A stretch of 45,303 nucleotides of DNA from an uncultured Methanosarcinales archaeon (GCA_964343575.1 CAYFJV010000001.1:155402-200704), one strand, 5' to 3'. Shown: positions 20,424 to 42,222, counted from the stretch's first letter. Translations and numbers: made by a program. The notes: generated from the sequence alone by a model not told the origin.

Positions 20424-20591
20424 TTATTTCATCACCATTTGTGCGGCGAAGCTAGGTTGCTTATATTGTTTATGGAATTTTAAACACTAATCCATTAAAA
20501 ATTCATTTTTCTTTCGCTTTTTCTTCTTTTTTACGGAAAATTTTATAAAAATCTCTTCTTGGGGAGGGATTGGGTTTTGAGGTGATTACGT

Positions 20592-21256: not shown

Positions 21257-21988
21257 TTGGTTGTTTCCCCGTTTAGAAAGAAAGTTGCTGAACTTGATAA
21301 GCAAGTTGATTTGCGTAAAAAAAATGCTCGGCGTAAGAAGTGTAAAATCTACTTGTTTCGCCATGCACAGACTTTCTACAATAAAAAGCATATTTTTACA
21401 GGCCACAAAGATAGTAAGCTTACTCCTTTTGGTCGAAAGCAGGCAAGAAAAGTTGCTCGACTTTTGAAGGAGAAGAAGATTGATGTTGCTGTGCATAGTA
21501 GGTTAAGTAGGTCTAAAGATACACTTTCTGCAGTACTTTCTTTTCATCCCGAGTGTTTGTTGAAGGTGGAAGATGATCGCATGATAGAGAGAAGTTATGG
21601 GGTCTTTGAAGGGAAAAGCCATAGGTGGTTTGTAGGCATGGCAAAGGAATTACTTGATGATGCGGCAACTTGGCACTATTTAGAAGGGTATCATCATGAG
21701 CATAAAGTTTTTCACAGTCTTGCTGAAAAAGAGCTTCATTTTTTAAGAAGAAATTATGTTGTTTGTCCTTCTGGTGGAGAATCAGTTAAGGATGTTGAGA
21801 AGAGAGTGAAAAGGTTTATCTCTGATCTTTTATATGTTATGCGAACTTACAAAGTACATGTAGCGATAAGTGCTCACGGCAATTCTATGCGTCCTTTTCG
21901 TCGTTATTTTGAAAAACTTAGTGTTGATCAGATGATGCAGCTAGAAAACCCTTGGGATGATTATTTTGAGTACGAAATAGAAGTTTAA
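21257..21988 (+). CDS. Histidine phosphatase / dPGM-like phosphoglycerate mutase family protein
   Basis: LFRHAQT, SRLSRS, ERSYG, GGES and SAHGNSMR motifs; TTG start after GGTGA. Confidence 0.9.
   Translation: MVVSPFRKKVAELDKQVDLRKKNARRKKCKIYLFRHAQTFYNKKHIFTGHKDSKLTPFGRKQARKVARLLKEKKIDVAVHSRLSRSKDTLSAVLSFHPECLLKVEDDRMIERSYGVFEGKSHRWFVGMAKELLDDAATWHYLEGYHHEHKVFHSLAEKELHFLRRNYVVCPSGGESVKDVEKRVKRFISDLLYVMRTYKVHVAISAHGNSMRPFRRYFEKLSVDQMMQLENPWDDYFEYEIEV
21837..21847 (-). repeat. dif-arm-like motif AGTTCGCATAA (intragenic)
   Basis: Exact TTATGCGAACT on the + strand. Confidence 0.55.
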
Positions 21989-22033
21989 TTTTTTGTTACA
22001 AGAGTTTTAAAATAAGCTTGTTTTTCTCGCTTT

Positions 22034-22804
22034 GTGGCAGAATATGTGTTAGTTCCTCAAGAAACGAGAATGAGCAGAGCGAATTTTCTTGAACTTTGTT
22101 TTGGGAGAATTGGTCATGATTTTTTAGGTCAAACTTTTGCTCTTCGATCAGGTCTTCGTTTACTTTCAACTGGCTTTGATAGGATTGCTGATGAGAGGAA
22201 AAAAAGATTTCTTAGCGAACTTTCTCCTCGAGCAAGACATGTAGATCAAGTGAGCTCTGCTTTGAGAACTTTAGCTCTTGGCTCTGATGATTTATCTTAT
22301 GATGGCTTTTCAGTATGTGGGCTGTTGGAAGATTTAGGGACTTTTGGAAGGAGTAAATGGCCAGGGCTAAATATTACCGTTGATGTACCAGATGACCTTT
22401 CTGTTCAAACTAGTGCAGTTTTGCTTTATACCCAACTTTGGAATTTTGTTTCAAATGCTTATGATGCTTATCCAGAAAGTCAACGAGGACTAATCGAACT
22501 GTCATCTGGTGAGTTAGCTTTGAGTGAGAAGGGCTGTCCCTTTTTAGGGGTTAATGGTGAGAAATATACTGTTGGTGATCCTTTTGTAAGAGTTTCAGTG
22601 AGGGATTATGGTCCAGGCATTGCTTCTGATGATTTAGAAAGAATATTTGAAGCTGGAGTAAGTGGAAGAGGCAGTTCAGGTATTGGCTTAGCTTTGGCTG
22701 AAGAGACTTGTTTGCGACTTCATGGATATTTGAGAGTAGAAAGCGAGCAAGGTTCTGGGAGCACTTTCTCGCTTTATTTTCCTAGAGAAAGGGTTAAAAA
22801 CTAA
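22034..22804 (+). CDS. Soluble histidine kinase-like protein (H-box + HATPase_c), no sensor domain
   Basis: IGHDF H-box-like motif, NFVSNA N-box, DYGPGI G1, IFE F-box, GIGLAL G2, GSTFSL. Confidence 0.85.
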   Translation: MAEYVLVPQETRMSRANFLELCFGRIGHDFLGQTFALRSGLRLLSTGFDRIADERKKRFLSELSPRARHVDQVSSALRTLALGSDDLSYDGFSVCGLLEDLGTFGRSKWPGLNITVDVPDDLSVQTSAVLLYTQLWNFVSNAYDAYPESQRGLIELSSGELALSEKGCPFLGVNGEKYTVGDPFVRVSVRDYGPGIASDDLERIFEAGVSGRGSSGIGLALAEETCLRLHGYLRVESEQGSGSTFSLYFPRERVKN

Positions 22805-22951
22805 AAAATGAAGCAAGGAAGAAGGGCTTCTATTATAATCCATCTGGAATATTCTTTTTAGGGTTGAAACGGTTGTTTGGAACCTAATTAGAGCTTGAAT
22901 TTCCCTTAGTTTACAGAAAAGTATATTAATGGGTAGAACTTCCCCCCTGCC

Positions 22952-23710
22952 ATGAAGAAAATTGCTCTTATCCAATTCCGCTCTGATCCAGTGGTCTTAG
23001 AGCAAGAAATTAAGCACGTTCTTAGTAAAATTAATGTTGAAAGAGAGTCTCTAGAGATCTTTAATGCTTTGAGTTACACGCTTCCTGCGATTGATGTTGA
23101 TCAGTATAGTGCTTTTATCTTTGCAGGTTCTGGTGAAGTTACTCTCTCAGATAGATGCCACAAGGGAAAATTTGTCAAAGCTAATGTGAGTTGGCTTATC
23201 AAAGAAGTAGTGCAAAAGGACAAGTTGAGTCTTTTTATTTGTCTTGGTCTTCATTTACTCTCTGAAGAATTGGGAGTTTCTGTGCAGCGATGCAAGGTTG
23301 CAGCTGAAGTTGGGACAGTTCCTGTTTCTTTGACACAGAATGGTAAAAATGATCCTTTATTTCAGTCAATAGATCATTTTACTCCGGCGCAAGCTGCGCA
23401 CAATGATTCCATTTTTGAGTTGCCTTCAGGAGCGGTTTTACTTGGAACTAATGAGAAGTGCCCTGTGCAAGCTTTTAGACTTAAGCGGAATATTTATGCG
23501 ACTCAGTTCCATCCAGAAATGAATAAGGATGATTTTTTTGCTAGACTTTCTTTTTATCCACACTATGTTGAAGAACACGGACTCACTTTAAAGGAGAGCC
23601 CACAAGTTGCTTTGCTTATGAAAAACTTTATTGACATGGCTTTCTCTCGCTTTGAGAGAGAAGGGGTTGCAGAGCAACTGTTTGAAGCTGAAGCGGTGAG
23701 TTCTAGTTAG
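22952..23710 (+). CDS. Class I glutamine amidotransferase-like protein
   Basis: ICLG nucleophile elbow and QFHPE triad residues. Confidence 0.88.
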   Translation: MKKIALIQFRSDPVVLEQEIKHVLSKINVERESLEIFNALSYTLPAIDVDQYSAFIFAGSGEVTLSDRCHKGKFVKANVSWLIKEVVQKDKLSLFICLGLHLLSEELGVSVQRCKVAAEVGTVPVSLTQNGKNDPLFQSIDHFTPAQAAHNDSIFELPSGAVLLGTNEKCPVQAFRLKRNIYATQFHPEMNKDDFFARLSFYPHYVEEHGLTLKESPQVALLMKNFIDMAFSRFEREGVAEQLFEAEAVSSS

Positions 23711-23805
23711 TTGCTTTCATTCTTTTCTCCAAAACCTTCTTTTCTTAATTGTTTTTATGGAATTGCTGGAAAAATATATAAATAAATCTCAATATTTCAG
23801 TTTTT

Positions 23806-24285
23806 ATGAAAAATAATCTATTGGCACTTGTTGGGGGAGCGTTGGCCTTTGGCTGCACTCCAAGGGATTGTGAAACTTTTGAAGTTCATCCAGATATTCG
23901 AGGAGACGAACCGGCGAAGATTAGAGTTTGTTATCGTCATTTGGATACTGAAAATGAGAGAATAGTCGTAAATGGCGTAGAGCAAGATCTTGCTGGGGAG
24001 TTGTATGTGGAAGTTACCCTCCCTAGGGAAGCTTTTCCAGGAGGTCAATATGAGCCAGGTCTTGTTGTAGCTTCAGATTTTGCAGGTCGTGATTATAGTA
24101 TTTTTAACTACTCTGAAAAGCCGGGAAGGACTTTTGATGGGCAAGCAGACCCAACTACTGTCCATGAATTAGGTCTTCCTATGGGCCAAGGTTTTAGTGT
24201 TCATGTCGATGCAGATAGGTCAGATGAGTTCTCTCCAAAGTACGATCTCTTTGGTATAGATATTTATGATTTGTCTTCTGAATAA
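23806..24285 (+). CDS. Putative lipoprotein, hypothetical
   Basis: MKNNLLALVGGALAFG-C lipobox-like leader; TATA-like sequence upstream. Confidence 0.7.
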   Translation: MKNNLLALVGGALAFGCTPRDCETFEVHPDIRGDEPAKIRVCYRHLDTENERIVVNGVEQDLAGELYVEVTLPREAFPGGQYEPGLVVASDFAGRDYSIFNYSEKPGRTFDGQADPTTVHELGLPMGQGFSVHVDADRSDEFSPKYDLFGIDIYDLSSE

Positions 24286-24324
24286 TCTTCTTCTGAATGC
24301 TTTTTTTCTTTGTTTTTCTTTTCA

Positions 24325-24383
24325 TTATACGAACTCCTTTGGAGATAAAGAAATTAATCTTAGAGAAGAGAGTTATGTGAACA
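24325..24383 (-). repeat. Tandem dif-arm pair, module C
   Basis: Minus strand reads TGTTCACATAA...GGAGTTCGTATAATG, arms 48 nt apart, intergenic. Confidence 0.6.
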
Positions 24384-24442
24384 AATAAAGAATCAAAAGC
24401 TATAAATACTGGTCTTGGCTTGTTCTGCTCGGTGATAGATGT

Positions 24443-25165
24443 ATGAAGTTAGTTCTCTTTAAACAACCTAAAAAAGTGCGTATTGTGGAAGGTTTTCCTG
24501 GTTTTGGTTTAATTGGTACCATCGCAACTGAATTTTTATTAGAACATTTAGAAACAGAAAAAATTGGTGTTGTTGAATTTGAAGAAGCGCCGGCAATGAT
24601 TGCAATCCATCAACATAAAGTAATTGAGCCGATTAGTTTGCATTACAACAAGAAAAATAATATGGTCTTTGTCCATGCGCTTAATATTCCAAAAGGATTA
24701 GAATGGAAAGTAGCTGATGTTCTTGTTGAGCTCAGTCAAAAGTTACAAGCTCGCGAAATTATTTCTTTAGAAGGTGTTGGAAGTCCGAGCGCTGAAGGAT
24801 CACGCATCTTTTATTTCTCAAGTAATGGAAAAGGAGCTACTGCTAAACCTAAAAAGTTAGAAGGAGTTGCTTACCCTTTGATGGAAGGTATCATTGTTGG
24901 CGTGACTGGAGCACTTCTAAGCAAACAAACAAATGTTCCTTTAACGGCTCTTTTTGCAGAGGCTAAAAGTAATTTACCAGATAGTAATGCTGCAGCTGAA
25001 ATTATTAAAGCACTTGATGCTTACACTGGTTTAAAGGTTGATCCCAGGCCTTTAAAGGCGCAGGCTAAGACTTTTGAGCAAAAGTTGAAGGGAATAGTGG
25101 GAAAGAAGCAGAAGATGGCTGGAATGGTTGCAAAACGTGATGAGAAGCTGAGTTATGTGGGGTAG
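24443..25165 (+). CDS. PAC2-family proteasome assembly chaperone
   Basis: EGFPGFGLIGTIATEFL, IVGVTGALL and PDSNAAAEII motifs. Confidence 0.92.
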   Translation: MKLVLFKQPKKVRIVEGFPGFGLIGTIATEFLLEHLETEKIGVVEFEEAPAMIAIHQHKVIEPISLHYNKKNNMVFVHALNIPKGLEWKVADVLVELSQKLQAREIISLEGVGSPSAEGSRIFYFSSNGKGATAKPKKLEGVAYPLMEGIIVGVTGALLSKQTNVPLTALFAEAKSNLPDSNAAAEIIKALDAYTGLKVDPRPLKAQAKTFEQKLKGIVGKKQKMAGMVAKRDEKLSYVG

Positions 25166-25170
25166 TTAGG

Positions 25171-25545
25171 ATGCCATTAACTAGGGATGAAAGGAGAAAA
25201 GCAAATGAGATTATTGCTTTTTTGCAAACTCAACTAGAAGCTGGTGTTGATGGAATTCCTTATTGGAGAGTTGCTCTTGAAGGGAACGGTTGGTTTCGTA
25301 ATAGTTATCGAGTTGGCATATCTGTCTATGCTGCTAAAATTCCTTTGCCTTTACAGTGGACGCCCATTCTAAGAGTGTTTATCCGAGATGATAGAGGAGA
25401 GTATCCTACTCCTTTTACTTGTAAGGTTGTAGATGTGGAGTATAGGGGAAATGCAAGGAACTTCTTCATTGAGAAAGCAATGCGAGGCTCAGAGCATCTT
25501 ATTGCCTTGCTTGAAGCGAAGTTTGATTATGTGGGTTCGGTTTAA
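25171..25545 (+). CDS. Hypothetical protein
   Basis: 124-aa ORF starting 5 nt after the PAC2 gene. Confidence 0.6.
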   Translation: MPLTRDERRKANEIIAFLQTQLEAGVDGIPYWRVALEGNGWFRNSYRVGISVYAAKIPLPLQWTPILRVFIRDDRGEYPTPFTCKVVDVEYRGNARNFFIEKAMRGSEHLIALLEAKFDYVGSV

Positions 25546-25562
25546 TTTTTTAGGTAATTGTT

Positions 25563-26426
25563 ATGAACCTTGTTCATTTGAGGCGTGATGCTGATTCTTT
25601 ATTGGGAGTAATAGAACGTTTTCAAAAAAGAATTGAGCAAGAGAACAAAGCTACGGTAGTTCTTTATAGGAGGCGCGCTCTTGCAGTGCAGCGTTTGAAA
25701 GATAATCCTCGTCTTGAAGTGGTTGAAGAACTTCGTGAGATTTATGCAGAGTTTGAGCGTTATTTGGGAGAGGCTGAGAGTGATTTGGCTAAGCTTGATG
25801 AAGTATTACTTCGTTTTGAAGCTTTGGTTAGTGAAAGGGCTAACTTAAAACATTTTTTTTGGGGGAAGGTTAATGGAGGAGGAAAAAATTCTTCTGCAAG
25901 TCAAATCGTCTTACTTCGCCTAGCTGTTAGAAGGATAAGAAAGTTTCAAACTTCTTTGAAAGCAAGTTTTACTTCTGTGAAAGAGCATATTGAAGAAGAG
26001 CGGAATCTGCTTAAGAAAATGGATGGCTCTTTTTACCATTATGCTATTGAGAGTTTTATTTATGAATATGAGCAAGAGAATGCCCTAACTCGTGCTTTCT
26101 ATGAATCTTCTTCTTTTGAGAATGTTCAAAATGTAAGGAACCGTGTAGAGGCTGAATTTAAAAAATTGAATGCGCAAGATGCTTTCTTGGTAACTGGGAT
26201 TCAGTTAGTTCCTTTTGCAGGGATTGGCGCCTCAGCAGGACTTTGTTTTGGTGTGTATATGGGTTTTATGTTGTGGGTTCTTGGGATTGTTGTCAAGTAC
26301 TTACTTATGGGGCTTGTGGTAGTAAATGCAAGTCGAAGGGGCAATGATGTTAGTAAGGGAAGAAGGGGAACTTTTGCTGTTGTTGATACTGTGGCTAGAT
26401 GGCGCAAGTCTAGAAGAGCAGCATAG
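25563..26426 (+). CDS. Coiled-coil protein with C-terminal Gly-rich TM segments
   Basis: E/R/L-rich helical N-terminal region followed by a hydrophobic GIGASAGLCFG...LVVV stretch. Confidence 0.65.
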   Translation: MNLVHLRRDADSLLGVIERFQKRIEQENKATVVLYRRRALAVQRLKDNPRLEVVEELREIYAEFERYLGEAESDLAKLDEVLLRFEALVSERANLKHFFWGKVNGGGKNSSASQIVLLRLAVRRIRKFQTSLKASFTSVKEHIEEERNLLKKMDGSFYHYAIESFIYEYEQENALTRAFYESSSFENVQNVRNRVEAEFKKLNAQDAFLVTGIQLVPFAGIGASAGLCFGVYMGFMLWVLGIVVKYLLMGLVVVNASRRGNDVSKGRRGTFAVVDTVARWRKSRRAA

Positions 26427-26620
26427 TTCTGTCTTTGCTAGTTACTTTTAGACGAAAAAGATTTTGTTTTTTCTTAGTTCTTTCATTTTAAATTTTAAGA
26501 ATAATCTTTGGATAGATTTTTATTTATTTGAGAAAAGTTTCTCTTTTATTTTCTTAAAAAAAGAAATATTTAAAATCTGGTTGAAAAAACCTTCAAAAAT
26601 AAACTTTTGAGGTATGAAAC

Positions 26621-26869
26621 ATGAAAAAATTACTAAAGTTGTTTGCAGTGTTTGTTTTGATGAGTTTAGTTTTGTCAATGAGTGTGTTTGCTTTTTTACA
26701 GGAGACTTCTGCGCATTCTGGTGATCAGAACGATGGTGTTGAGCAGCCTTCTGCAGAAGAAGAACCTTCAGAACACGATTATTATGGTGGGGGTAACCAA
26801 AAATTTTCTCAAAATGAGAATTACTCTTTTGGAGATGTTAGGAATTTTTTTGGAGATCCAGAAGAATAA
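26621..26869 (+). CDS. Small secreted acidic peptide (paralogous leader 1)
   Basis: GAGGT RBS; signal peptide MKKLLKLFAVFVLMSLVLSMSVFA. Confidence 0.75.
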   Translation: MKKLLKLFAVFVLMSLVLSMSVFAFLQETSAHSGDQNDGVEQPSAEEEPSEHDYYGGGNQKFSQNENYSFGDVRNFFGDPEE

Positions 26870-26914
26870 TCTTTTCTTAATTTTATTTTTTTAAAGATAA
26901 TGGGGTAGAATATA

Positions 26915-27157
26915 ATGAAAAAAATAATGAAATTGTTAAGTGTGTTTGCAGTGATGAGTTTAGTGCTGTCGATGGGGGTTTTTGCATCAGAAGGTTTTTC
27001 GACGAGCAGTTATAGTCATACAACAGTTTTCTTGGCAACTGGAACAAATTCTGGTCAAGGTACTTTTGTCGGGGGTTTAACTTCTTTGGATGTCTGGAAT
27101 CCTCGTCAAGGAGATCATTGGGTTGCGCCAGATTCTCCTTCTGATGTTTTAGAATAA
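26915..27157 (+). CDS. Small secreted peptide (paralogous leader 2)
   Basis: GGGGT RBS; signal peptide MKKIMKLLSVFAVMSLVLSMGVFA. Confidence 0.75.
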   Translation: MKKIMKLLSVFAVMSLVLSMGVFASEGFSTSSYSHTTVFLATGTNSGQGTFVGGLTSLDVWNPRQGDHWVAPDSPSDVLE

Positions 27158-27480
27158 TCTTTTTAATTTTCCTTTTTGTTTTTGATTAAATTTTTCTACT
27201 TTAATTTTTTTAAGTTTTAATTGAAATTTTTCTTCACATTTTTTGTGAAATTCTCTTCTGCTACTTTCTATTTTTGATTAAATCTTTTTGATCAAAATCT
27301 TCTTAGAAATCCTTAAAAGAAAAATCATTGGTTTTGGAGTAATTTTGTTGCCCTACTTTCAAATTTTTTAGAAAACCTTGGCCAAATTTTCTCGGAGAAG
27401 CCGGCCTTTTTGATGCAAATGTGGCTAAGTCTGTTGTTTTACGGTTTTTGAGACAAATATGTCATGAAATGAGCTAAAAA

Positions 27481-27508
27481 ACTCCGCATAATATACATTA
27501 GGCGAACC
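27481..27508. other. dif: dif-like Xer recombination site (11-6-11)
   Basis: ACTCCGCATAA-TATACA-TTAGGCGAACC. The reverse complement GGTTCGCCTAATGTATATTATGCGGAGT matches E. coli dif (as recalled) at 22 of 28 positions, including the TGTATA spacer. Intergenic, 4 kb from xerA. Confidence 0.8.
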
Positions 27509-27541
27509 AGTTGGTGGAAAAGAGAGATTTTGGAAGAAAAA

Positions 27542-28045: not shown

Positions 28046-28082
28046 GAATTTTTCAGAGGGTGTTTTTTATTTAAAAGTTGTC

Positions 28083-28622
28083 TCAAAAAAGAGACGAATT
28101 TCCTAAAATTTCATCGAGAGATAAGGGAGTAAATCTGGCGGGCACAGTAACTGGATTCTCTAGTGTGACAGAATCTGCAGACCACACATACATTGAAGTC
28201 TCTAAACCTGGAAGAAAGTTTCCATTATCATAAAAACAGTTAGTTGTCCAAGTTCCGACATCTCCATGATTAACTGCAGTCCCTCCTTCAAAAGCATAAT
28301 GTGCAGTAGTAATAATGAACTCATCTGCTTGAGTATAAGAAAAAGTGGGGCAATTTGCCCATCTCCCTTCTGGATGAGTTATGTTGAGAGAAAGTGTTCC
28401 TTGGCCAGTTTCCACCATACCAACAAAAGTGTCTCCTTCTGGGTGATATTGACATACTTCAATGGAAGTATTTTGGTCACTGTAAGCTTCTTGACACCGC
28501 TTTATTGGCCCCCGTGGGGGAACTTCAACAATACCAACTATTGGTCTTTGATATGTGCTTATTTCTCCTTGACAGGCAGATAAGCTAAAAGAAAGAGTAA
28601 GAGATTTGAGAATATTTTTCAT
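28083..28622 (-). CDS. Putative lipoprotein, hypothetical
   Basis: MKNILKSLTLSFSLSA-C lipobox. Confidence 0.7.
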   Translation of the reverse strand: MKNILKSLTLSFSLSACQGEISTYQRPIVGIVEVPPRGPIKRCQEAYSDQNTSIEVCQYHPEGDTFVGMVETGQGTLSLNITHPEGRWANCPTFSYTQADEFIITTAHYAFEGGTAVNHGDVGTWTTNCFYDNGNFLPGLETSMYVWSADSVTLENPVTVPARFTPLSLDEILGNSSLF

Positions 28623-28720
28623 TTCTTTAGGAAAAGAGCAAATTCACTTAAAATTTCCACCTCAATATTGGGGTTTTTTATTGAAAAAAATTTATAAAAA
28701 TAGTAAAAAATGAGGAGAAA

Positions 28721-29065
28721 ATGAGAGAATACCTCCCCACTTTGCTAAGAACAAATGCAGCAAGACTACAAGTACTTCCCTATGTGGCTGCAGGATACCT
28801 TAATGGTAGTATGCAGGAAGAAACAATCCAATGGGTTTTACTAGCTGCAGGCGTTGGTTTAACTGTAATGGCGTTGGACAGCAAGATATATCCTTCAGTA
28901 AGGAACCTTAGAGAAGAAAGAGTAGATTGGAGCACTGGAAGAGTAGAAGGTGCCCGTTATCGCCCCAGTGAAACTCCAACTGCACTTACTTTAGATGAGG
29001 CACTCTGGCCATTTGTGGTGGGCGCAGGAGCAGGTGCTTTTGGATATTTTATGGGAGCATTATGA
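28721..29065 (+). CDS. Hypothetical small membrane protein
   Basis: GAGGAG RBS, TTTATAAA upstream, two hydrophobic Gly-rich segments. Confidence 0.65.
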   Translation: MREYLPTLLRTNAARLQVLPYVAAGYLNGSMQEETIQWVLLAAGVGLTVMALDSKIYPSVRNLREERVDWSTGRVEGARYRPSETPTALTLDEALWPFVVGAGAGAFGYFMGAL

Positions 29066-29175
29066 TGATTAAAGTTATTGTCTTTGATTAAAATTTCCCA
29101 TTCTAAATTTATTTGTTCTTATCAATAAGTTTTATTCTCCTAAAACCATAAAAAGAAAGCTCTTTTTGTAAGCTC

Positions 29176-29778
29176 ATGCAGATAGTTGCTCATTTAGAAA
29201 AACCGTCGTTGAAAGCAGAATTTTTAGCTGCAAAATCAGTACCTCATTTACACATTAAAGATTTTTTAGATGAAAAGAGTGCAGCAGAGCTGTTAAAAGT
29301 TGTAGAAAAGCTAGACTTTGAAGAAAAAGAAAGTGATTTGTTTCACTTTTGGCAGAGCAAAAATTTGAAGATTTTGGATGATGAAAAAAACAATCAACTC
29401 TTAAAATTTTTTGATCTAATAAATTCTAGCAAAGTTAAAAACTTTCTTTCCAGCATTTCTGGCTTGAAAATTACAAATGCTGATTTTCATGCAACTAAAT
29501 ATGTGAAAACAAATTATTTGTTGCCTCATGATGATCAGTTAGAAGGGAGAAAAATTGCTTACATTTATTATCTTAGTAATTTGAAAAAAGAAGAAGGAGG
29601 GGCTTTTGAATTCTTTTCTGTTGATGAAAAAAACAAGCCACTTCTCGTCGAGAAAAGTGTACTTCCTGTTGCAAACTCTTTGTTTCTTTTTGAAGTTTCT
29701 GACAAATCTTTTCATCAGGTAAGTGAAGTGTTAAAAGATGCCCAGCGTTATGCACTTGCGGGGTGGTTTTATGGATAA
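29176..29778 (+). CDS. 2OG-Fe(II) prolyl-hydroxylase-like protein, similar to the OGFOD1/Tpa1 N-terminal catalytic domain
   Basis: HDD...H metal triad and 2OG-binding Arg: LLPHDDQLEGRKIAYIYYL...SFHQVSEV...RYALAGWFYG. Confidence 0.88.
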   Translation: MQIVAHLEKPSLKAEFLAAKSVPHLHIKDFLDEKSAAELLKVVEKLDFEEKESDLFHFWQSKNLKILDDEKNNQLLKFFDLINSSKVKNFLSSISGLKITNADFHATKYVKTNYLLPHDDQLEGRKIAYIYYLSNLKKEEGGAFEFFSVDEKNKPLLVEKSVLPVANSLFLFEVSDKSFHQVSEVLKDAQRYALAGWFYG

Positions 29779-30349
29779 TTTACACCCACTTTACTTACAG
29801 GAAGGAGTGCAAAAACAAGTTAGAGAACAGCTTTTTTCACAGGGATTTGTGCAGTTATCCTCGCTATTTTCAGTCTCAGAACTTAGAAAACTAAATAAAA
29901 TTATGCGAACTTCTGGAAAAATAAAGAGATATAATCCAGATAAATTTTCTTTTACAAAAATTTTGTTTAGCGAGGAAGAAAAGAAACTTCTTTTTGATAA
30001 AATCGGCGATTTGTTGACATGGATTGCTGGAAAAAAAGTTAAGATTTTAGAACTTGAAGGAAGAGAGTTCAAACACCGTGACTACACACTTCTTCACGAC
30101 GAAGAAAGTTTGAAAAATTATGCGAAAAAAGTAGGGAAAAGGCACTTTTTTTGTTTAGAATTAAGTTCTGATTGGCTTGAAGAAAGTGGCGGACAAGATT
30201 ATTTTGTTTTTGATGAAGAAACCTTTATTTTACCAGTTTTAGAAAACAGTTTTTCAGTAGTTCTCGAGGTAGAGAAACATTTTACTAAGTATGTAAATTG
30301 CTTAGCTGATGGTAGAAAAAGAGTTCTTATAATGGGTTTTTTCCATTAA
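29771..30349 (+). CDS. Protein resembling the OGFOD1/Tpa1 C-terminal (Ofd1_CTDD) degenerate oxygenase domain
   Basis: LHPLYL, DYTLLHD, W.EESGG, ENSFSVV and FTKYVN motifs; the ATG at 29771 overlaps the upstream stop (ATGGATAA) and follows GGGTGG. Confidence 0.8.
   Translation: MDNLHPLYLQEGVQKQVREQLFSQGFVQLSSLFSVSELRKLNKIMRTSGKIKRYNPDKFSFTKILFSEEEKKLLFDKIGDLLTWIAGKKVKILELEGREFKHRDYTLLHDEESLKNYAKKVGKRHFFCLELSSDWLEESGGQDYFVFDEETFILPVLENSFSVVLEVEKHFTKYVNCLADGRKRVLIMGFFH
29884..29911. repeat. Intragenic dif-arm copy with TAA-N6-TTA geometry
   Basis: TAGAAAACTAA-ATAAAA-TTATGCGAACT; the right arm is an exact consensus copy and the left arm is degenerate. Confidence 0.45.
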
Positions 30350-30376
30350 ATTTTTCTTCTCGGAGAGTTCGCATAA
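30321..30376 (+). repeat. Tandem dif-arm pair, module A
   Basis: GAGTTCTTATAATGG...TTCTCGGAGAGTTCGCATAA, arms 44 nt apart. Confidence 0.72.
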
Positions 30377-30378
30377 AA

Positions 30379-31320
30379 CTAAGAATAAAGAGGAACAGTG
30401 CCAGTTTCTAATTCTCCAAGAGATCTTCTAAGACCACTGGTACAAAGACCGCCTTCTCTTTTTGGTAAAACAAGAAGCTCAAGATCCTCTAAACCAGCTC
30501 TTACTTCAGAAACTCTTCTTTGATCATTAAGAAAAAAAGCTTTTATTCCTAAATAATGAAGCAGTGCTTGTCCTGCACTTCTCCTATCTAAAAATACTGC
30601 TCTTTCTTTAGATCCTTGAACTTTTCCTGAAACAAGTTCTTGAAAAAATGCTTCCCCTTCTCGACAGGTTTTTGCAAAGCTTGCGAACCTTTCCATTTGA
30701 GCATTAAAATGAGGGTCTTCTTCCAAAGAGACTATGCTATAGATTATTCCCTCTTCAGGGGGACCGGTCTCTCTGACTCTAGCAATCTGATAGCGTAAAC
30801 CAAGGATTCTTGCACCAAATTCAGCAGTATGTGCTTGTCTAAATTCCTGACTAAGATCTGTTCTTCTTCCAAGAAGAACCAAAGCTTCAAGATAAAGTTT
30901 TTCTGCTCTTAAAAGAGCATCAACTATTGAGGAAGATACCCTTGGATCATCAAGCTTCCCATGATCTTTATAGAAACAGAGACATGCGGTTCTAAGCGTC
31001 TGAGCTTGAGCAAGAGGAAGATCAAAATTATCTGGGAAACGTTCCCTGATCATACCCATTGTTCCAGCACTTTCATCTCTCAAGATACTGAGATAATTTT
31101 TAATTGGGAACTTTTCTTCGCGAGGAGAGTATGAAGGATAAGCTCTTCTAACAAATTCACTAAGTGAGATTAGTCCTCTCGTTGTACTCAATGATAACTG
31201 GCCATATTCCAATCTTATTTTCTTGCTGAAGTGAATTCCTTCTTCGTTTATTCTTCTGGCAGTTTCTTCGTCAAAAAGCTGGAAGTTAACTCCTCCTATT
31301 GATTGGCTTGGAATTAGCAT
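30379..31320 (-). CDS. Hypothetical protein (helical), divergent from xerA
   Basis: 313-aa ORF; no family recognised. Confidence 0.7.
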   Translation of the reverse strand: MLIPSQSIGGVNFQLFDEETARRINEEGIHFSKKIRLEYGQLSLSTTRGLISLSEFVRRAYPSYSPREEKFPIKNYLSILRDESAGTMGMIRERFPDNFDLPLAQAQTLRTACLCFYKDHGKLDDPRVSSSIVDALLRAEKLYLEALVLLGRRTDLSQEFRQAHTAEFGARILGLRYQIARVRETGPPEEGIIYSIVSLEEDPHFNAQMERFASFAKTCREGEAFFQELVSGKVQGSKERAVFLDRRSAGQALLHYLGIKAFFLNDQRRVSEVRAGLEDLELLVLPKREGGLCTSGLRRSLGELETGTVPLYS

Positions 31321-31421
31321 TACATTTTTTTGTTTTATCCTTTTTTTAAAATATTCTCTCTTTTCTTTAACAATAATTGACTTTTACCGATTTTTTACCT
31401 TAGAAGTGGGAAGTGATTAGA

Positions 31422-31449
31422 TTTATATAGTCTCAAGATTATCTGAACT
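31422..31449 (+). promoter_or_regulatory. xerA TATA box plus a dif-arm motif at the predicted transcription start
   Basis: TTTATATA (31422-31429), then TTATCTGAACT (31439-31449, reverse complement AGTTCAGATAA) just before the ATG at 31452. Confidence 0.6.
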
Positions 31450-31451
31450 TT

Positions 31452-32285
31452 ATGAGAAGAGGTGGAGCGAGAGATGTTGATCTTTCTGAATTAGAAACCG
31501 AATTAGAACTACGGGGGATGGCTGATAATACCATCAAGTTGTATTTCAAATACAACGCACGTTTTCTCAAATTTGCTGATAAAACTCCAGAGCAAGTCAC
31601 CAAAACTGATGTCAAAAAATTTCTTGCCAGCCTTGTGAAGAAAAAAACAGCGCCAAGAACCATTAACATGGTACGCTCGGCGCTCCTCTTTTATTACAAC
31701 GAAGTTTTGGGTAAGGATTTTGTAGCAGTAAAGATTCCAAAAGTTAAGCGCTCGCTTCCAGTTTTCTTAAGTAAGGAAGAAATAAGTCATTTGATTGTGC
31801 AAGCAGGAACAGCAAAGAGTCAGCTCATCATTAAGTTTCTCTACAGTAGCGGTTTGCGCGTCTCTGAGCTTTGTTCACTTCGCATAGAGGATCTTGAGCT
31901 TAGCGATAGGAAAGGCTTTGTACGTGATGGGAAAGGGGGTAAGGATCGCTTATTTTTCATCTCTGAAGGCTTGTCTACAGAATTGGCTGCTTTTTTGGGA
32001 CAGCTTAAGCAAGGTTATGTCTTTCCAAACCATTATGGTGAGCGTATGACTGAGCGTAATGTGCAAAAGATCATTAGTCGTGCAGGCAAGAAAGCAGGAA
32101 TTATGAAACAAGTAACCCCCCATAAACTTCGTCATTCTTTTGCTACGCATTTACATGATTCTGGAACCTCTATTCGTACTATTCAGGAATTGCTTGGTCA
32201 TGCTAATCTACAAACCACGGAGATTTATACGCATGTTTCGCAGCAGCGGCTTAGAAATGTGAAAAATCCTTTAGAGGATATTTAA
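31452..32285 (+). CDS. xerA: XerA-like tyrosine recombinase
   Basis: SAM-like N-terminal domain; catalytic R (GLRVSE), K (GKGGKDR), HKLRH, LGH and Y (TTEIY); lacks the integron-integrase insertion. Confidence 0.9.
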   Translation: MRRGGARDVDLSELETELELRGMADNTIKLYFKYNARFLKFADKTPEQVTKTDVKKFLASLVKKKTAPRTINMVRSALLFYYNEVLGKDFVAVKIPKVKRSLPVFLSKEEISHLIVQAGTAKSQLIIKFLYSSGLRVSELCSLRIEDLELSDRKGFVRDGKGGKDRLFFISEGLSTELAAFLGQLKQGYVFPNHYGERMTERNVQKIISRAGKKAGIMKQVTPHKLRHSFATHLHDSGTSIRTIQELLGHANLQTTEIYTHVSQQRLRNVKNPLEDI

Positions 32286-32362
32286 ACAAACAGAGTCCAA
32301 ATAAATGGTTTCTCTCCATATAAAAAGACGAATTAGACAAATTTATCTTCAAAGTCAGCCAT

Positions 32363-32845
32363 ATGTTTATAAAGACTGTCCAATCTAGAGACATTGTGGT
32401 ATACCAAAGGTATGAAACGCATTTAGCCAAGCTGTTAGGTATGTTTGTTGATAAGTATAGGGACGATCTTGTAACGGAGCTAGGCGGTGCTTATTACAAT
32501 AGAGTAGTATTTCCCAAGTTGGTTCGTGGAGCACTTGAAGAGGGATTAGCTTATTTAGGATTGGATGAAGAAGAAGAAGACCCCTTAAGAGTATATCTTT
32601 CTAGAAGAATAGTTGAGGCAGGTCATGATAGAGAAGCAGCGCAAGAAGTTGTTGGTGTTTTTTGTGGTACCTTGGAATCATTTTTAAGAGAGTTAGGAGA
32701 TAGTCAACGAAAAGGGATACCAGATGCTGATGAATTAAGAGCAGCTTATTCTACTGAGAGAAATGTTACAAAACTCGCAAAGCAATATGGAGTATCAAGA
32801 CCAACGATATATCGCTGGCTTAGAAGACATAAAATTAGTACTTAA
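32363..32845 (+). CDS. Protein with C-terminal resolvase/Hin-like HTH
   Basis: NVTKLAKQYGVSRPTIYRWLRRH. Confidence 0.75.
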   Translation: MFIKTVQSRDIVVYQRYETHLAKLLGMFVDKYRDDLVTELGGAYYNRVVFPKLVRGALEEGLAYLGLDEEEEDPLRVYLSRRIVEAGHDREAAQEVVGVFCGTLESFLRELGDSQRKGIPDADELRAAYSTERNVTKLAKQYGVSRPTIYRWLRRHKIST

Positions 32846-32848
32846 ATT

Positions 32849-33304
32849 TTAGAAAAAAGTCTCTAAGGTTAAATTAACCACATTCTCTTTTGCTTGTTTT
32901 TCTTTGAAGAGTGGATCAAGTTGCACAAGAATTTGTTTATTCACATAAGAACGGATAATAGGAATTCCTTTTTGAGAAAGAGAAGAGATGTATTCTTTGA
33001 CAAGAGTCAAGGGCACCTTAGCTTTTTCAGAAATTTCTTTGAAAGCCATAGAGAATTCGTTGGTGTACATCACCAAGAAGATTTGTTTCTCAACTTCATT
33101 GAGCGGCACAATGTTGTGATCAATAACACCTTGCTGCAAATGCACTTGGTCCAATCGTGCATTAAGTTTGTCAATCTTTACTTCAATGTCGTGGAGGTAA
33201 TCAAAGAGGCCTTGAATCTCAGAACTATTTTCATTAATTGCCATGAGATGTTCATCAAAATTCTCACGAACTTTGGCTATTTGTTCTCGAAGACTTGACC
33301 TCAT
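32849..33304 (-). CDS. Coiled-coil + winged-helix protein with PIP-box-like C-terminus
   Basis: N-terminal heptads; LNEVEKQIFLVMY...FKEISEKAKVPLTLVKEYISSLSQKGIPI wHTH pattern; ends NLTLETFF; GAGGT RBS. Confidence 0.78.
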   Translation of the reverse strand: MRSSLREQIAKVRENFDEHLMAINENSSEIQGLFDYLHDIEVKIDKLNARLDQVHLQQGVIDHNIVPLNEVEKQIFLVMYTNEFSMAFKEISEKAKVPLTLVKEYISSLSQKGIPIIRSYVNKQILVQLDPLFKEKQAKENVVNLTLETFF

Positions 33305-33497
33305 TTTTTACCTCTTCTTCGAAAGCTCTCGCTAGCTTTCATTACCACACAAAAGAAGTGTAAGAAAAATCTCTTACGCCTCTATCCCACCCCTGAGATG
33401 ACTTGGTGAAACTTTTATCGTTTAAATAACTTTCTCTTGTTGAGACAAGCATCACTTTTCGATGGTAAGAAGTGTTTAAAAGAAGAAGGAAAATTGT

Positions 33498-34112
33498 TTG
33501 TCGCTTAAGGGTTTTCTAGAATACTTATTTGATTATTTGTTTTCTAAGAGTAGAAATTGTTATAACTCTATTAAGTTTGAAGAAAGTGTGGAAGTTGGAA
33601 CTTATAAGAATCGAATTGGCTGGTACTTCCAAGACAGAATCCGAGACATTCTTGGAGTTATGCATAACCCCGGAGAAGGAGCAGACCTTGTCTCTTTTAA
33701 AGACGGTTTTGCACCAACGGCTATAGAAGTTAAATCACGTATGACTAAATACGGTGGCTGGTCAGTAGATAATGATCAAGTAAGAAGATATCCAAAGTTA
33801 CATAGAGAGTTAGAAGACGGTTTGTGGTGGGCTTTTGCAGTTTATGATCTTGCCTGTAGTGTTGGAGAAGTAAGAGATGAAGATGATTTTATGAAACTCA
33901 CTTCAAACAGAAGAGTTTACCTTATGAGAACAGACCTTGTTTTAGGATACAGGGTAGATAGAGGAGGGTGGAGAAACGTTCGTCTAAGAGGAGTTACTGA
34001 GGCAGCAAAAGGTTTTGTTGAAAGAGAGATTTATGGAACAAGGGTGTTTATACCTCCAGAGAGTTCTTTAACTCCAAGGTTAGAAAGACTCCTTATTCCT
34101 GTTCCTTTCTAA
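33498..34112 (+). CDS. Putative PD-(D/E)xK nuclease-fold protein
   Basis: GADLVSF...AIEVKS motif; the start codon is uncertain (TTG). Confidence 0.6.
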   Translation: MSLKGFLEYLFDYLFSKSRNCYNSIKFEESVEVGTYKNRIGWYFQDRIRDILGVMHNPGEGADLVSFKDGFAPTAIEVKSRMTKYGGWSVDNDQVRRYPKLHRELEDGLWWAFAVYDLACSVGEVRDEDDFMKLTSNRRVYLMRTDLVLGYRVDRGGWRNVRLRGVTEAAKGFVEREIYGTRVFIPPESSLTPRLERLLIPVPF

Positions 34113-34145
34113 ACTATTTTAAAGAAAGATTATTTTTTCCTTTCC

Positions 34146-34778
34146 ATGAGTTTTCGTAGTAAAAGAGAATTTGCAGTTTGCTTAAGTAAGTTAGATTCTT
34201 TTGAAACACATTCTGTAAAGTTGGAGCAGTACGCAACACCTTCAGAGATTGCAGCAGATTGGCTTTGGAATATGGCCATGCAAAGTGAGATTAATAGTCG
34301 CGTATTTCTAGATGCAGGTTGTGGTCCTGGAACTCTTGGTTTGGGTTTGTTATTGTTAGGTGCTCGTAAGGTGTATTTTTTAGATAAAGATGCTGCTGTG
34401 CTTGAAGTGTGTAGAAGAAATTTTGAAAAGTTGTCTTCAGAGTATGAGTTAGGAGAAGCAGAGTTTATTGCTTCAGATATTTCTTTGTTTGATGGAGAAG
34501 AGGGAGAGATTGACGGAGTTGTACAAAATCCTCCTTTTGGTACTAAGGAAAAACATCATGATAAAAAGTTCTTAGAAAAAGCTTTTGAGCTTTCTGGGAA
34601 GATTTGGAGTATGCATAAGTGGAGCACAAAAGTTTTTGTTGAAGCAATTGCCAAAGATCATAGTTTTGTCATTAGTTCTGTTTGGCGTTATGAGTTTCCT
34701 GTTAGAGCACAGTTCTCTTTTCATAAAAAACCTGTTCGTAAGGTAGATGTTGGCGTTTGGAAGTTGGAGAAAGCGTAG
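34146..34778 (+). CDS. METTL5-family N6-adenine rRNA methyltransferase
   Basis: LEQYATP, DAGCGPG SAM-binding motif, NPPFG, C-terminal FHKK. Confidence 0.92.
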   Translation: MSFRSKREFAVCLSKLDSFETHSVKLEQYATPSEIAADWLWNMAMQSEINSRVFLDAGCGPGTLGLGLLLLGARKVYFLDKDAAVLEVCRRNFEKLSSEYELGEAEFIASDISLFDGEEGEIDGVVQNPPFGTKEKHHDKKFLEKAFELSGKIWSMHKWSTKVFVEAIAKDHSFVISSVWRYEFPVRAQFSFHKKPVRKVDVGVWKLEKA

Positions 34779-34802
34779 ATTTTGTGTCGTTTGTTGTTTT
34801 TT

Positions 34803-34857
34803 ATGTTCTTATAATGGACTTTGAGCTTATCTCTTTGTTCTCTGAGAGTTCGCATAA
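34803..34857 (+). repeat. Tandem dif-arm pair, module B
   Basis: GTTCTTATAATGG (13/13 identical to module A)...TTCTCTGAGAGTTCGCATAA (19/20 identical to module A), arms 43 nt apart, intergenic. Confidence 0.75.
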
Positions 34858-34911
34858 TGTTCCATTCTTTCAGAGCTTTTTTATAGATTAAGAACATCCT
34901 TCCCTCCTTCG

Positions 34912-41910: not shown

Positions 41911-42222
41911 TCTCAGAAAGACTTATTCTTAGCTTTAAATGGCTTTCTCAAGTGTAAAGAGGCAGAGATTGGCTGGGAAATAGTTAAATTATGGAGAATA
42001 TATTTACAGTATATTCTAAAGTTTTATATATGCCTTTTTGAGATTTTTACTCCTAAAGAGGTGTGCGTGCTTTTTAGCGCGAGTGCTCTTAGGGGTGTGG
42101 CCAGGAAATGAGTTGTGTTTTCTTTCCTGGCTCTTTTTTTCGACTTTTTTCTATAAGAGTATTCTTTTCTTTCTAAAAATATTTAAAATTAGATCTTTTC
42201 CCGATTTTTGTGGCAAGTACTT

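What the first reader, a model, noticed from the sequence alone, without database searches (positions are those of the whole stretch)
21837..34857. Constellation of dif-arm motifs around dif and xerA: a possible undescribed XerA terminus-organising system
Seen: GTTCnnATAA, the consensus arm of the dif site, occurs at 21837(-), 24325(-), 24373(-), 29901(-), 30323(+), 30367(+), 31439(-), 33922(-), 34805(+) and 34848(+). The exact 11-mer AGTTCGCATAA occurs four times. I saw no copies outside this 13 kb by eye, and a rough composition estimate predicts about one chance copy within it. Most copies lack a partner arm, so they are not recombination-competent dif sites. Known: in Bacillus subtilis XerD binds non-dif sites near the terminus and unloads SMC. 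Inference: XerA has extra binding sites that organise the terminus, load recombinase, or are scars of repeated Xer-mediated cassette integration.
Basis: partly seen in the sequence, partly recalled or inferred. Interest (0 to 1): 0.85.

Follow-up and report, generated by a model that had tools for sequence, protein, structure and literature searches.

The report
Satellite dif half-sites around archaeal xerA
A tiny DPANN archaeon and its two closest relatives keep extra single-arm copies of the chromosome-unlinking site dif clustered around the real dif site and the xerA recombinase gene, most likely as docking or control sites for the recombinase and not as scars of past insertions.

Summary
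All 10 listed GTTCnnATAA copies exist. The window has 13 copies against about 1.8 expected, and the genome has 54. All 4 genome copies of AGTTCGCATAA lie within 13 kb around a unique 28-bp dif (27481-27508) and a bona fide xerA (31452-32285).

A matrix built only from full dif arms of five related genomes puts 8 of its 13 best genome hits in this window. The clustering recurs in the two other genomes of the genus (6 of 8 and 3 of 3 hits on the xerA contig). It is absent in five other genera.

The gene block is conserved chromosomal synteny, not an island. One perfect arm was created inside an intact conserved gene by a KK-to-RT codon change. Others sit at orthologous intergenic positions with fixed spacing to TATA boxes. 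A dif-arm also lies in the xerA core promoter in all 8 orthologs with at least 60% identity.

So these are selected half-sites, not insertion scars. Two listed copies (30323, 34805) look like TATA-box relics instead.

Best reading (about 0.5): non-recombining XerA docking/operator sites, giving xerA autoregulation plus a local landing array, analogous to Bacillus XDS. Binding is untested. Earlier notes of this scan describe accessory repeats at other DPANN dif-xerA loci.

The parts
27481..27508 (.). Full dif site: ACTCCGCATAA / TATACA / TTAGGCGAACC (11-6-11)
   Evidence: It is the only arm-6-arm candidate of this quality in the window. It is unique in the genome at up to 3 mismatches to the family dif pattern. 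It is intergenic. Orthologous full dif sites lie 1-4 kb upstream of xerA in G002, G007, G011 and G030.
31452..32285 (+). xerA, archaeal Xer tyrosine recombinase (277 aa)
   Evidence: Pfam Phage_integrase plus SAM-like N domain. NCBIfam NF040815 recomb_XerA_Arch scores 251.7 bits against a cut-off of 220. P. abyssi XerA 4A8E matches at E 5e-54, and the aligned R, HxxR, H and Y motif positions are kept.
21837..21847 (-). Satellite half-site AGTTCGCATAA inside the intact histidine-phosphatase gene
   Evidence: 18.2 bits on the dif-arm matrix. It is created by VMKKY to VMRTY (AAAAAG to CGAACT) relative to the G001 and G011 orthologs.
24323..24335 (-). Satellite half-site AGTTCGTATAATG, with the short inverted repeat CTCC-AAA-GGAG on its 5' side; part of module copy C
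   Evidence: It lies in the intergenic region between gene 23806-24285 and PAC2.
24373..24382 (-). Weak copy GTTCACATAA (first element of module C), 18 nt upstream of the PAC2 TATA on the other strand
   Evidence: It scores below 10 bits on the dif-arm matrix.
29901..29911 (-). Satellite half-site AGTTCGCATAA inside the second ORF of the 2OG-oxygenase (Ofd1-like) gene
   Evidence: The codons read KIMRT in a poorly conserved stretch. G001 has an independent minus-strand arm about 8-10 codons away in the same gene.
30322..30376 (+). Module copy A: GTTCTTATAATGG box (last codons of the 2OG gene), 31 nt, short inverted repeat, half-site AGTTCGCATAA (30366-30376)
   Evidence: (family D14). It aligns to the X(-)/site divergent promoter region of G001 and G002. 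It lies in the 29-nt gap between convergent genes.
31439..31449 (-). Weak half-site AGTTCAGATAA between the xerA TATA box (31423-31430) and its ATG
   Evidence: 10.8 bits. The same position carries ACTTCGGATAA (15.9 bits) in G001. A dif-arm is the top-scoring element upstream of xerA in all 8 orthologs with at least 60% identity.
34804..34859 (+). Module copy B: GTTCTTATAATGG box, 30 nt, inverted repeat CTC-T-GAG, half-site AGTTCGCATAATG (34847-34859)
   Evidence: The half-site is followed after 19 nt by TTTTTTATA and after another 26 nt by the ATG of gene 34912. The same layout occurs in G001 and G002: 13 of 14 site columns are invariant against 63% mean column identity.
12367..12379 (+). Possible outlying member GGTTCAGATAATG inside the giant surface-protein gene
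   Evidence: It is one of only 4 genome matches to RGTTCNNATAATG, and all 4 are in the window. G001 has two such copies in its homologous giant gene. It is weak on the matrix.
15340..15350 (+). Possible outlying member AGTTCGGCTAA (14.2 bits) in the giant gene
   Evidence: not followed up.
41808..41818 (-). Possible outlying member ACTTCTCATAA (14.1 bits)
   Evidence: not followed up.
27450..27465 (+). Palindrome GAGAC-N6-GTCAT, 15 nt from the dif arm
   Evidence: GRGAC-N6-GTCAT occurs at the same spacing beside the dif of G001 and G002.
32849..33304 (-). Small TrmB-like winged-helix gene conserved next to xerA
   Evidence: Weak Pfam TrmB hit (E 6e-4). tblastn finds homologs beside xerA in 7 of 8 relatives' loci examined.

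Best explanation
The cluster is a set of 'satellite' dif half-sites. Each is a single copy of the XerA-binding left arm, AGTTCG(C/T)ATAA, usually followed by TG. Selection keeps them in the roughly 13-30 kb around the unique dif site and xerA in one genus of Woesearchaeota-type DPANN archaea.

Inferred mechanism:
- XerA monomers bind these isolated arms.
- No inverted partner arm is present, so no recombination synapse forms. The sites therefore act as docking or operator sites, not as crossover sites.
- One class sits in promoters. A half-site in the xerA core promoter would give negative autoregulation. Half-sites about 20 nt upstream of TATA boxes, in divergent promoter regions, would couple neighbouring genes to XerA occupancy.
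- The remaining copies, including intragenic ones, would hold a pool of XerA, or form protein roadblocks, next to dif. This is comparable to the XerD-bound XDS half-sites of Bacillus subtilis.

Shown here: sequence identity to dif arms, clustering, conservation and turnover within the genus, and promoter geometry.

Inferred, not shown: XerA binding, and any regulatory or architectural effect.
For: Enrichment:
- 13 copies against 1.8 expected in the window.
- 4 of 4 genome copies of the 11-mer lie within 13 kb.
- A matrix built from 10 arms of full dif sites of five genomes puts 8 of 13 genome hits at 14 bits or more, and 4 of 4 at 16 bits or more, in this window, which is 3.7% of the genome.

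Independent replication in the genus:
- RGTTCNNATAATG gives 6 of 8 genome hits on the 35.7-kb xerA contig of G001.
- GTTCGYATAA gives 3 of 3 on the 6.6-kb xerA contig of G002.
- Five other genera show only dif itself near xerA.

Not scars:
- The block L11-HisPhos-GATase-PAC2-dif-2OG-xerA-TrmB-like-MTase is conserved synteny.
- The arm at 21837 arose by a five-nucleotide KK-to-RT codon change inside an intact conserved gene.
- G000 and G001 carry independent minus-strand arms about 30 nt apart in the same variable part of the 2OG gene.
- Each of the two genomes has 5 strong satellites, 2 left and 3 right of dif, some at shifted positions. That pattern looks like binding-site turnover under selection.

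Purifying selection at an orthologous intergenic site: downstream of the MTase gene, 13 of 14 site columns are invariant in three genomes against 63% mean identity. The spacing is fixed at site, 19-20 nt, TTTTTTATA, 21-26 nt, ATG. G002 shows the same 20-nt spacing to the xerA TATA.

xerA promoter: a dif-arm is the best-scoring element in the 110 nt upstream in 8 of 8 orthologs with at least 60% identity. It scores 12 bits or more in 3 of 12 more distant orthologs.

Feasibility:
- The gene is a bona fide XerA.
- P. abyssi XerA binds and cleaves single half-site substrates in vitro (PMC3646895, passages read).
Against: - There is no binding, expression or chromosome-conformation data for this organism. 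No public run could be listed.
- In T. kodakarensis, XerA ChIP-seq identified dif as the binding site, and the dif-associated boundary did not need XerA or dif (PMC11840125, passages read). An architectural role for XerA therefore has no archaeal precedent.
- The satellites carry a G-rich left flank and a short inverted repeat that true dif arms lack. This could mean that another factor, or a DNA or RNA structure, is what is recognised.
- Two strong sites, 30366 (between convergent gene ends) and 24325, have no TATA box downstream at the 20-nt spacing. Promoter geometry differs between genomes, so a pure operator model does not cover all copies.
- Several sites coincide with synteny breakpoints between the three genomes.
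- The expanded array is confined to one genus of three genomes, which are not independent.
Confidence: 0.5

Rival explanations
1. Recombination junctions. The half-sites would be hybrid sites left by Xer-mediated integration, excision or inversion of gene cassettes (IMEX- or pdif-like), or hot spots where XerA cleavage at single arms drives rearrangements.
For: - Gene content differs on both sides of two satellites in the three genomes. Between the upstream satellite and xerA there is nothing in G002, a Fic gene in G001 and gene X' in G000.
- The MTase gene next to the downstream satellite is inverted in G002.
- The dif flanks carry genome-specific genes.
- In G000, modules A and B share a 13-mer found nowhere else in the genome and 84% identity over 31 nt. 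This suggests copying between sites.
- Most satellites keep the first two spacer bases, TG, of dif.
- XerA can cleave half-sites in vitro.
Against: - Only one full dif exists, and no pseudo-dif pairs flank any segment.
- The arms at 21837 and 29901, and G001's arm in the same gene, lie inside intact colinear genes.
- No arm of 10 bits or more lies between the TrmB-like and MTase genes of G002 where an inversion partner would be expected.
- Neutral scars would not stay perfect while the other arm is unrecognisable, nor stay conserved at orthologous intergenic positions.
- G000-specific inserted genes (32363-32845, 33498-34112, 19788-21166) have no satellites at their borders.
Confidence: 0.17
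2. Sites of another factor or structure. The conserved unit would be the roughly 50-nt module (T-rich box, short inverted repeat, GTTCGYATAATG). It would be a duplicated (bi)directional promoter or operator recognised by a different DNA-binding protein, for example the TrmB-like protein encoded beside xerA or the second Xer paralog. Alternatively it acts as a small hairpin. On this reading the likeness to the dif arm is secondary.
For: - An inverted repeat of 4 bp or more ends within 3 nt of the arm at 8 of 19 sites, against 14.5% of 9,520 genomic GTTC positions. For 3 bp or more it is 15 of 19 against 41%. The stem sequences vary: CTCC/GGAG, CCCC/GGGG, CCAC/GTGG.
- True dif arms have A-rich outer flanks instead.
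- Module left parts align between genomes and contain a TATA box of a divergent gene.
- A TrmB-like gene is conserved next to xerA. TrmBL2 is the dif-boundary factor in T. kodakarensis.
- A second XerA-like gene exists at G000:C2:449115-449903.
Against: - The shared core is an 11-13 nt exact match to the dif left arm of related genomes. That is hard to explain unless the same protein reads both.
- Intragenic satellites lack the module.
- Three-to-four-bp repeats are weak statistics, and the control was only roughly matched.
- No consistent palindrome was found near the paralog in 7 loci.
Confidence: 0.2
3. Chance or composition: an AT-rich motif that happens to cluster.
For: - The degenerate 10-mer is common: 41 copies elsewhere in the genome.
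- At least four window copies are better read as TATA boxes or conserved coding sequence.
Against: - 0 of 100 shuffles reach the observed counts.
- 4 of 4 genome copies of the 11-mer lie within 13 kb.
- The result is replicated in G001 and G002.
Confidence: 0.02

Closest known systems
XDS sites of Bacillus subtilis (XerD-binding dif-like half-sites in the terminus that unload Smc-ScpAB)
   Same: Both are isolated dif-like sites, not used for dimer resolution, clustered around dif. This genome also encodes Smc and ScpA. The system is described in passages of PMC11840125, citing its ref. 60. I did not see the primary paper.
   Different: - This case is an archaeon with a single XerA, not XerC/XerD.
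- The cluster spans about 13-30 kb.
- Several sites sit at fixed distances from TATA boxes and in the xerA promoter.
- Neither binding nor an SMC effect has been shown.
- In T. kodakarensis the dif boundary is XerA-independent.
dif1 of Thermoplasma acidophilum (a XerA-binding site that is not a recombination substrate)
   Same: It is an extra XerA-type site in an archaeal chromosome that does not recombine (PMC11840125 passages citing Jo et al. 2017).
   Different: dif1 is a single additional full-length site elsewhere in the genome. Here there are at least five single-arm sites clustered at dif and xerA and conserved in a genus.
dif-xer modules with the site at the recombinase gene's promoter (difSL-xerS of streptococci; dif-like sites upstream of the xerA operon in haloarchaea)
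   Same: A recombinase-binding sequence sits in or beside the recombinase gene's promoter. Autoregulation was proposed as speculation for XerS (PMC1914069 discussion). For haloarchaea see the PMC11840125 passages.
   Different: Those promoters carry the full recombination site. Here the full dif lies 1-4 kb upstream, and the promoter holds only one arm, between the TATA box and the ATG or abutting the TATA box.
IMEX elements and pdif modules (mobile DNA exploiting Xer, flanked by dif-like sites)
   Same: Both show dif-like sequences at boundaries of variable gene content near dif. pdif modules are mentioned in the PMC11705084 abstract in a search listing only.
   Different: Those elements are bounded by full two-arm sites. 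Here there are no second full sites, and some satellites are inside intact genes.
Integron attI accessory integrase-binding repeats and attC sites
   Same: A Xer-related tyrosine recombinase has extra single binding sites near its main site. The attI DR1/DR2 feature is recalled, not checked.
   Different: XerA here lacks the integron-integrase signature: TIGR02249 scores 201.6 bits against a cut-off of 265. There are no attC-type paired inverse cores and no promoterless cassette array.

Membership tests
Archaeal XerA/dif dimer-resolution system | Chromosomal XerA-type tyrosine recombinase with the catalytic residues | tested here: met
   NF040815 scores 251.7 bits against a cut-off of 220. 4A8E matches at E 5e-54 with the R, HxxR, H and Y positions aligned and conserved.
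Archaeal XerA/dif dimer-resolution system | One 28-bp imperfect inverted repeat (11-6-11) with TAA-N6-TTA, unique in the chromosome | tested here: met
   Site at 27481-27508, unique at up to 3 mismatches. The TAA(N)6-8TTA criterion comes from the PMC11840125 methods passage.
Archaeal XerA/dif dimer-resolution system | Location at the replication terminus | tested here: inconclusive
   GC skew drops from about +0.17 to about +0.04 near contig position 185-190 kb, where dif lies. However, skew is positive almost everywhere and shifts at several places, and the contigs are unordered.
XDS-like Xer half-sites (B. subtilis type) | Sequence equals one arm of dif and lacks a partner arm | tested here: met
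   AGTTCG(C/T)ATAA equals the left arm of the G002, G007 and G011 dif sites. No inverted partner is present.
XDS-like Xer half-sites (B. subtilis type) | Bound by the Xer recombinase in vivo | not testable with these tools
   No ChIP or EMSA is available. The only related evidence is that P. abyssi XerA acts on half-site substrates in vitro.
XDS-like Xer half-sites (B. subtilis type) | Unloads or blocks Smc-ScpAB | not testable with these tools
   Smc (1178-aa frame) and ScpA are encoded. No conformation data exist.
IMEX / pdif-type Xer-exploiting elements | Segment flanked by two full dif-like sites | tested here: not met
   There is a single full site in the window and the genome.
IMEX / pdif-type Xer-exploiting elements | Sites mark insertion boundaries that interrupt synteny | tested here: inconclusive
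   This holds for the two satellites flanking xerA. It is false for 21837, 29901 and G001's arm inside the 2OG gene, which lie inside intact genes.
Integron | IntI-type integrase above the family threshold | tested here: not met
   TIGR02249 scores 201.6 against 265, and NF011946 scores 132.5 against 435.
Integron | attC sites with paired inverse core and core repeats bounding cassettes | tested here: not met
   The paired copies in modules A, B and C are direct repeats, not inverted. No complementary arm was found.

The most novel reading that the evidence does not exclude
An archaeal counterpart of the bacterial XDS system with an added regulatory layer. XerA would be not only the dimer resolvase but also a site-specific DNA-binding protein. 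It would occupy an array of single dif arms around dif, set its own level through a half-site in its promoter, control neighbouring promoters, and form a recombinase-loaded domain or roadblock for Smc-ScpAB at the terminus. In archaea, which lack FtsK, such an array could be the missing device that localises Xer recombination or gives it directionality.
Probability: 0.2. Interest if true: 0.8.

Novelty: new variant of a known kind. Interest (0 to 1): 0.55.

Why it matters
How archaeal XerA is controlled is an open question. Archaea lack FtsK, the bacterial factor that activates Xer at dif (PMC8371274 passage). In T. kodakarensis the conserved chromosomal boundary at dif does not depend on XerA.

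A conserved, selected array of single dif arms, one of them in the xerA promoter, gives concrete and cheap targets for testing three things:
- whether XerA binds outside dif;
- whether XerA regulates itself;
- whether it shapes the terminus region.

The array also warns annotators that dif-like half matches near xerA need not be decayed mobile-element junctions.

Tried and rejected
- Integrated-element reading. The 4.5 kb between the direct repeats at 30366 and 34847, which includes the integrase gene, is not an island: xerA, the TrmB-like gene and the MTase gene are syntenic across the family.
- Coding constraint as the cause of the intragenic arms. The arm positions are not aligned between G000 and G001, and the residues there are not conserved.
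- A second, tandem or inverted arm next to the satellites. No matrix hit of 4.5 bits or more lies within -24 to +29 nt of the 12 sites; the single row that showed a hit was my own 1-nt offset. No full sites were found.
- Small ORFs starting at the ATG of ATAATG. They are 9-25 codons long and not conserved (read from the sequences).
- A cognate palindrome for the second Xer paralog. Nothing consistent was found in 7 loci. One 9-of-11 palindrome with an 8-nt spacer 3 kb upstream in G000 was not followed up.
- An inversion partner site for the inverted MTase gene of G002. None of 10 bits or more was found.
- More copies of the roughly 50-nt module. nhmmer found only the 3 G000 training copies in the genome, which match by construction.
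- Function of gene X' (30379-31320). Pfam, NCBIfam and the Atlas gave nothing usable.
- Public sequencing runs for read-level junctions or expression. None was listed.
- Earlier notes of this scan near this place or on look-alike stretches. None was found.
- Literature. Searches with xera/dif/archaea/half-site (285 papers held at least 3 of the 4 terms; one listed), xerd/xds/smc/terminus (5 papers; one listed) and xera/autoregulat/promoter/dif site (31 papers; 10 listed) showed no report of XerA half-site clusters in the listings and passages I read. Subscription papers are not covered. I did not see the primary XDS paper or Jo et al. 2017.

Full report
**Observation.**
Dinucleotide shuffles expect 1.82, and 0 of 100 shuffles reach 13. 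The 11-mer AGTTCGCATAA occurs four times against 0.01 expected.

The window is G000:C1:155402-200704 of a 1.21-Mb, six-contig genome. Genome-wide there are 54 copies of the 10-mer. Thirteen are in the window and 11 lie within 21837-34857. All 4 of 4 copies of the 11-mer are here. Allowing up to 2 mismatches, 19 of 311 genome hits lie in 21.0-35.5 kb. Binomial tails run from 1e-11 to 7e-8, depending on whether the post-hoc 13 kb or the whole window is the unit.

**What surrounds it.**
The genes are archaeal: PAC2, TYW3, a short TIM, and TATA boxes about 22-30 nt upstream of start codons. Earlier notes of this scan call the genome Woesearchaeota-type DPANN; I did not check this.

ORF 31452-32285 is a bona fide XerA. 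NF040815 scores 251.7 bits against a cut-off of 220. P. abyssi XerA 4A8E matches at E 5e-54 with the catalytic motif positions kept.

A full 11-6-11 site, ACTCCGCATAA-TATACA-TTAGGCGAACC, lies at 27481-27508 in an intergenic region. It is the only such site in the genome at up to 3 mismatches. Relatives carry AGTTCG(C/T)ATAA-TGTATA-TTATGCGAAGT-type sites 1-4 kb upstream of their xerA orthologs.

The order L11, histidine phosphatase, GATase, PAC2, dif, 2OG oxygenase, xerA, TrmB-like gene, methyltransferase is conserved across the family. The region is chromosomal backbone, not an integrated element.

**Independent tests of clustering.**
I built a matrix from the ten arms of the full dif sites of five genomes; no satellites were used. 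It gives the following counts in G000.

| Threshold | Genome hits | In the window |
|---|---|---|
| 14 bits or more | 13 | 8 |
| 16 bits or more | 4 | 4 |
| 12 bits or more | 53 | 10 |

In the two other genomes of the genus the pattern repeats:
- RGTTCNNATAATG gives 6 of 8 genome hits on the 35.7-kb xerA contig of G001, and 4 of 4 in the window for G000.
- GTTCGYATAA gives 3 of 3 on the 6.6-kb xerA contig of G002.

In five other genera (G007, G011, G019, G030, G040) only dif itself lies near xerA. The enlarged constellation is a trait of this genus. The three genomes are kin, so they do not count as three independent events.

**Scars or selected sites?**
Several results argue against decayed junctions.
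1. The perfect arm at 21837 lies inside the intact histidine-phosphatase gene. G001 and G011 read VMKKY and VVKKY there, and G000 reads VMRTY. The change AAAAAG to CGAACT creates the arm.
2. The arm at 29901 lies in a poorly conserved stretch of the second ORF of the 2OG-oxygenase gene. G001 has its own minus-strand arm about 8-10 codons further on in the same gene, and G002 has none.
3. Downstream of the methyltransferase gene, all three genomes carry the arm. Thirteen of 14 site columns are invariant in an alignment with 63% mean column identity. The layout is arm, 19-20 nt, TTTTTTATA, 21-26 nt, ATG.
4. G000 and G001 each have five strong satellites, two left and three right of dif, with the same strand pattern (-, -, dif, -, +, +). 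Some are at shifted or non-orthologous positions. This looks like binding-site turnover under stabilising selection.
5. There is no second full site that could bound an element.

**Promoter association.**
In the 110 nt upstream of xerA, the best matrix hit is a dif arm in 8 of 8 orthologs with at least 60% identity: G000, G001, G002, G007, G011 and three metagenome contigs. It scores 12 bits or more in 3 of 12 more distant orthologs.
- In G000 and G001 the arm lies on the minus strand between the TATA box and the ATG.
- In the G007/G011 clade it abuts the TATA box.
- In G019, G023 and G030 it is plus-strand, between TATA and ATG.
- In G002 it is 20 nt upstream of the TATA box, in a divergent promoter region shared with an unknown gene X.

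The intergenic satellites belong to a roughly 50-nt module: a T-rich box, a short inverted repeat, then the arm. Its left part aligns between genomes and contains the TATA box of the divergent gene. GTTCTTATAATGG at 30323 and 34805 are the only two copies in the genome. Together with 38036 they are TATA-like boxes on the other strand, not arms. The copy at 24536 is conserved PAC2 coding sequence.

**Mechanism proposed.**
XerA most plausibly binds these single arms. They match its dif arm over 11-13 nt, and P. abyssi XerA binds and cleaves half-site substrates in vitro (PMC3646895, passages). Without a partner arm no synapse forms, so the sites would act as docking or operator sites.
- The arm in the xerA core promoter would give negative feedback.
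- Arms 20 nt upstream of TATA boxes could couple neighbours to XerA occupancy.
- The intragenic and promoter-less copies fit better a local XerA pool or roadblock near dif, like the XDS half-sites where B. subtilis XerD unloads Smc-ScpAB (as summarised in PMC11840125).

Smc and ScpA are encoded here. All of this is inference: nothing here shows binding.

**Evidence against, and rivals.**
- T. kodakarensis ChIP-seq found dif as the XerA site, and the dif boundary persisted without XerA or dif. It needs TrmBL2.
- The satellites have a G-rich flank and a 3-4-bp inverted repeat with varying sequence. A stem of 4 bp or more is seen at 8 of 19 sites against a 14.5% background, with a rough control. 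True dif arms lack this flank. A second factor or a structure may therefore be involved, and a TrmB-like gene is conserved beside xerA.
- Gene content changes on both sides of the two satellites that flank xerA. Between the upstream satellite and xerA there is nothing in G002, a Fic gene in G001 and gene X' in G000. The MTase gene is inverted in G002. Modules A and B in G000 look like copies of each other. The sites may therefore also be rearrangement hot spots.
- GC skew changes near dif but is not a clean terminus signal.

**Comparison and novelty.**
The closest known systems are:
- Bacillus XDS;
- the non-recombining dif1 of T. acidophilum;
- dif-xer promoter modules, for which XerS autoregulation was proposed only as speculation (PMC1914069);
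- IMEX and pdif elements.

The IMEX and integron membership tests fail on defining features. I found no report of clustered XerA half-sites in archaea in three literature searches, within the limits of the library. Earlier notes of this scan describe accessory repeat arrays around dif-xerA in other DPANN genomes. I did not test them, but they suggest a wider theme.

**Verdict.**
This is a real, conserved, probably functional feature. It is a new variant of a known kind, and its function is unproven.

Noticed in passing
window 27450-27465; L029 and L030 beside their dif sites: A palindrome GRGAC-N6-GTCAT sits at a fixed distance (about 15-16 nt) from one dif arm in G000, G001 and G002. It is a candidate accessory protein-binding site of the dif locus.
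   Followed up: partly
window 32849-33304 (-): A small coiled-coil plus winged-helix (weak TrmB hit) gene is conserved immediately beside xerA across the family. This is notable because TrmBL2 is the dif-boundary factor in T. kodakarensis.
   Followed up: partly
5' flank of satellites, e.g. window 24336-24346, 30356-30365, 34838-34846; L118:253-262: A short inverted repeat with varying sequence (CTCC/GGAG, CTC/GAG, CCCC/GGGG, CCAC/GTGG) lies directly 5' of the half-sites and is absent from true dif arms. It is unexplained.
   Followed up: partly
window 29176-29778 and 29738-30349: The 2OG-Fe(II) oxygenase and its Ofd1-like C-terminal domain are encoded as two overlapping or adjacent ORFs in different frames in all three genomes of the genus. 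This could be a split gene or a programmed frameshift.
   Followed up: no
G000:C2:449115-449903 (L037:10116-10904): A second XerA-like gene, 40% identical to the window's XerA, scores 211 bits on NF040815 (below the cut-off of 220) with the partial sequence I scanned. Most relatives also have two or more such paralogs. Its target site is unknown.
   Followed up: partly
L029:10109-10136 (G001): The dif of G001 has a good left arm and spacer but a strongly degenerate second arm. No full dif was found in that 89%-complete genome at up to 3 mismatches.
   Followed up: partly
L030:5240-5869 (G002) versus window 34146-34778: The methyltransferase gene next to the downstream satellite is inverted in G002 relative to G000, G001 and more distant relatives.
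   Followed up: partly
L029:12934-13965 (G001): A Fic/DOC-domain gene lies between the upstream satellite and xerA in G001 only. In G000 an unrelated unknown gene (30379-31320) lies there, and in G002 nothing does.
   Followed up: partly
window 26621-26869 and 26915-27157: Two tandem paralogous small ORFs have similar hydrophobic N-termini (76% identical over 71 nt). They lie in the genome-specific segment left of dif.
   Followed up: no
window 42038-42388: A small ORF has a Sigma70 region 4 hit (E 1e-9) in an archaeal genome.
   Followed up: no
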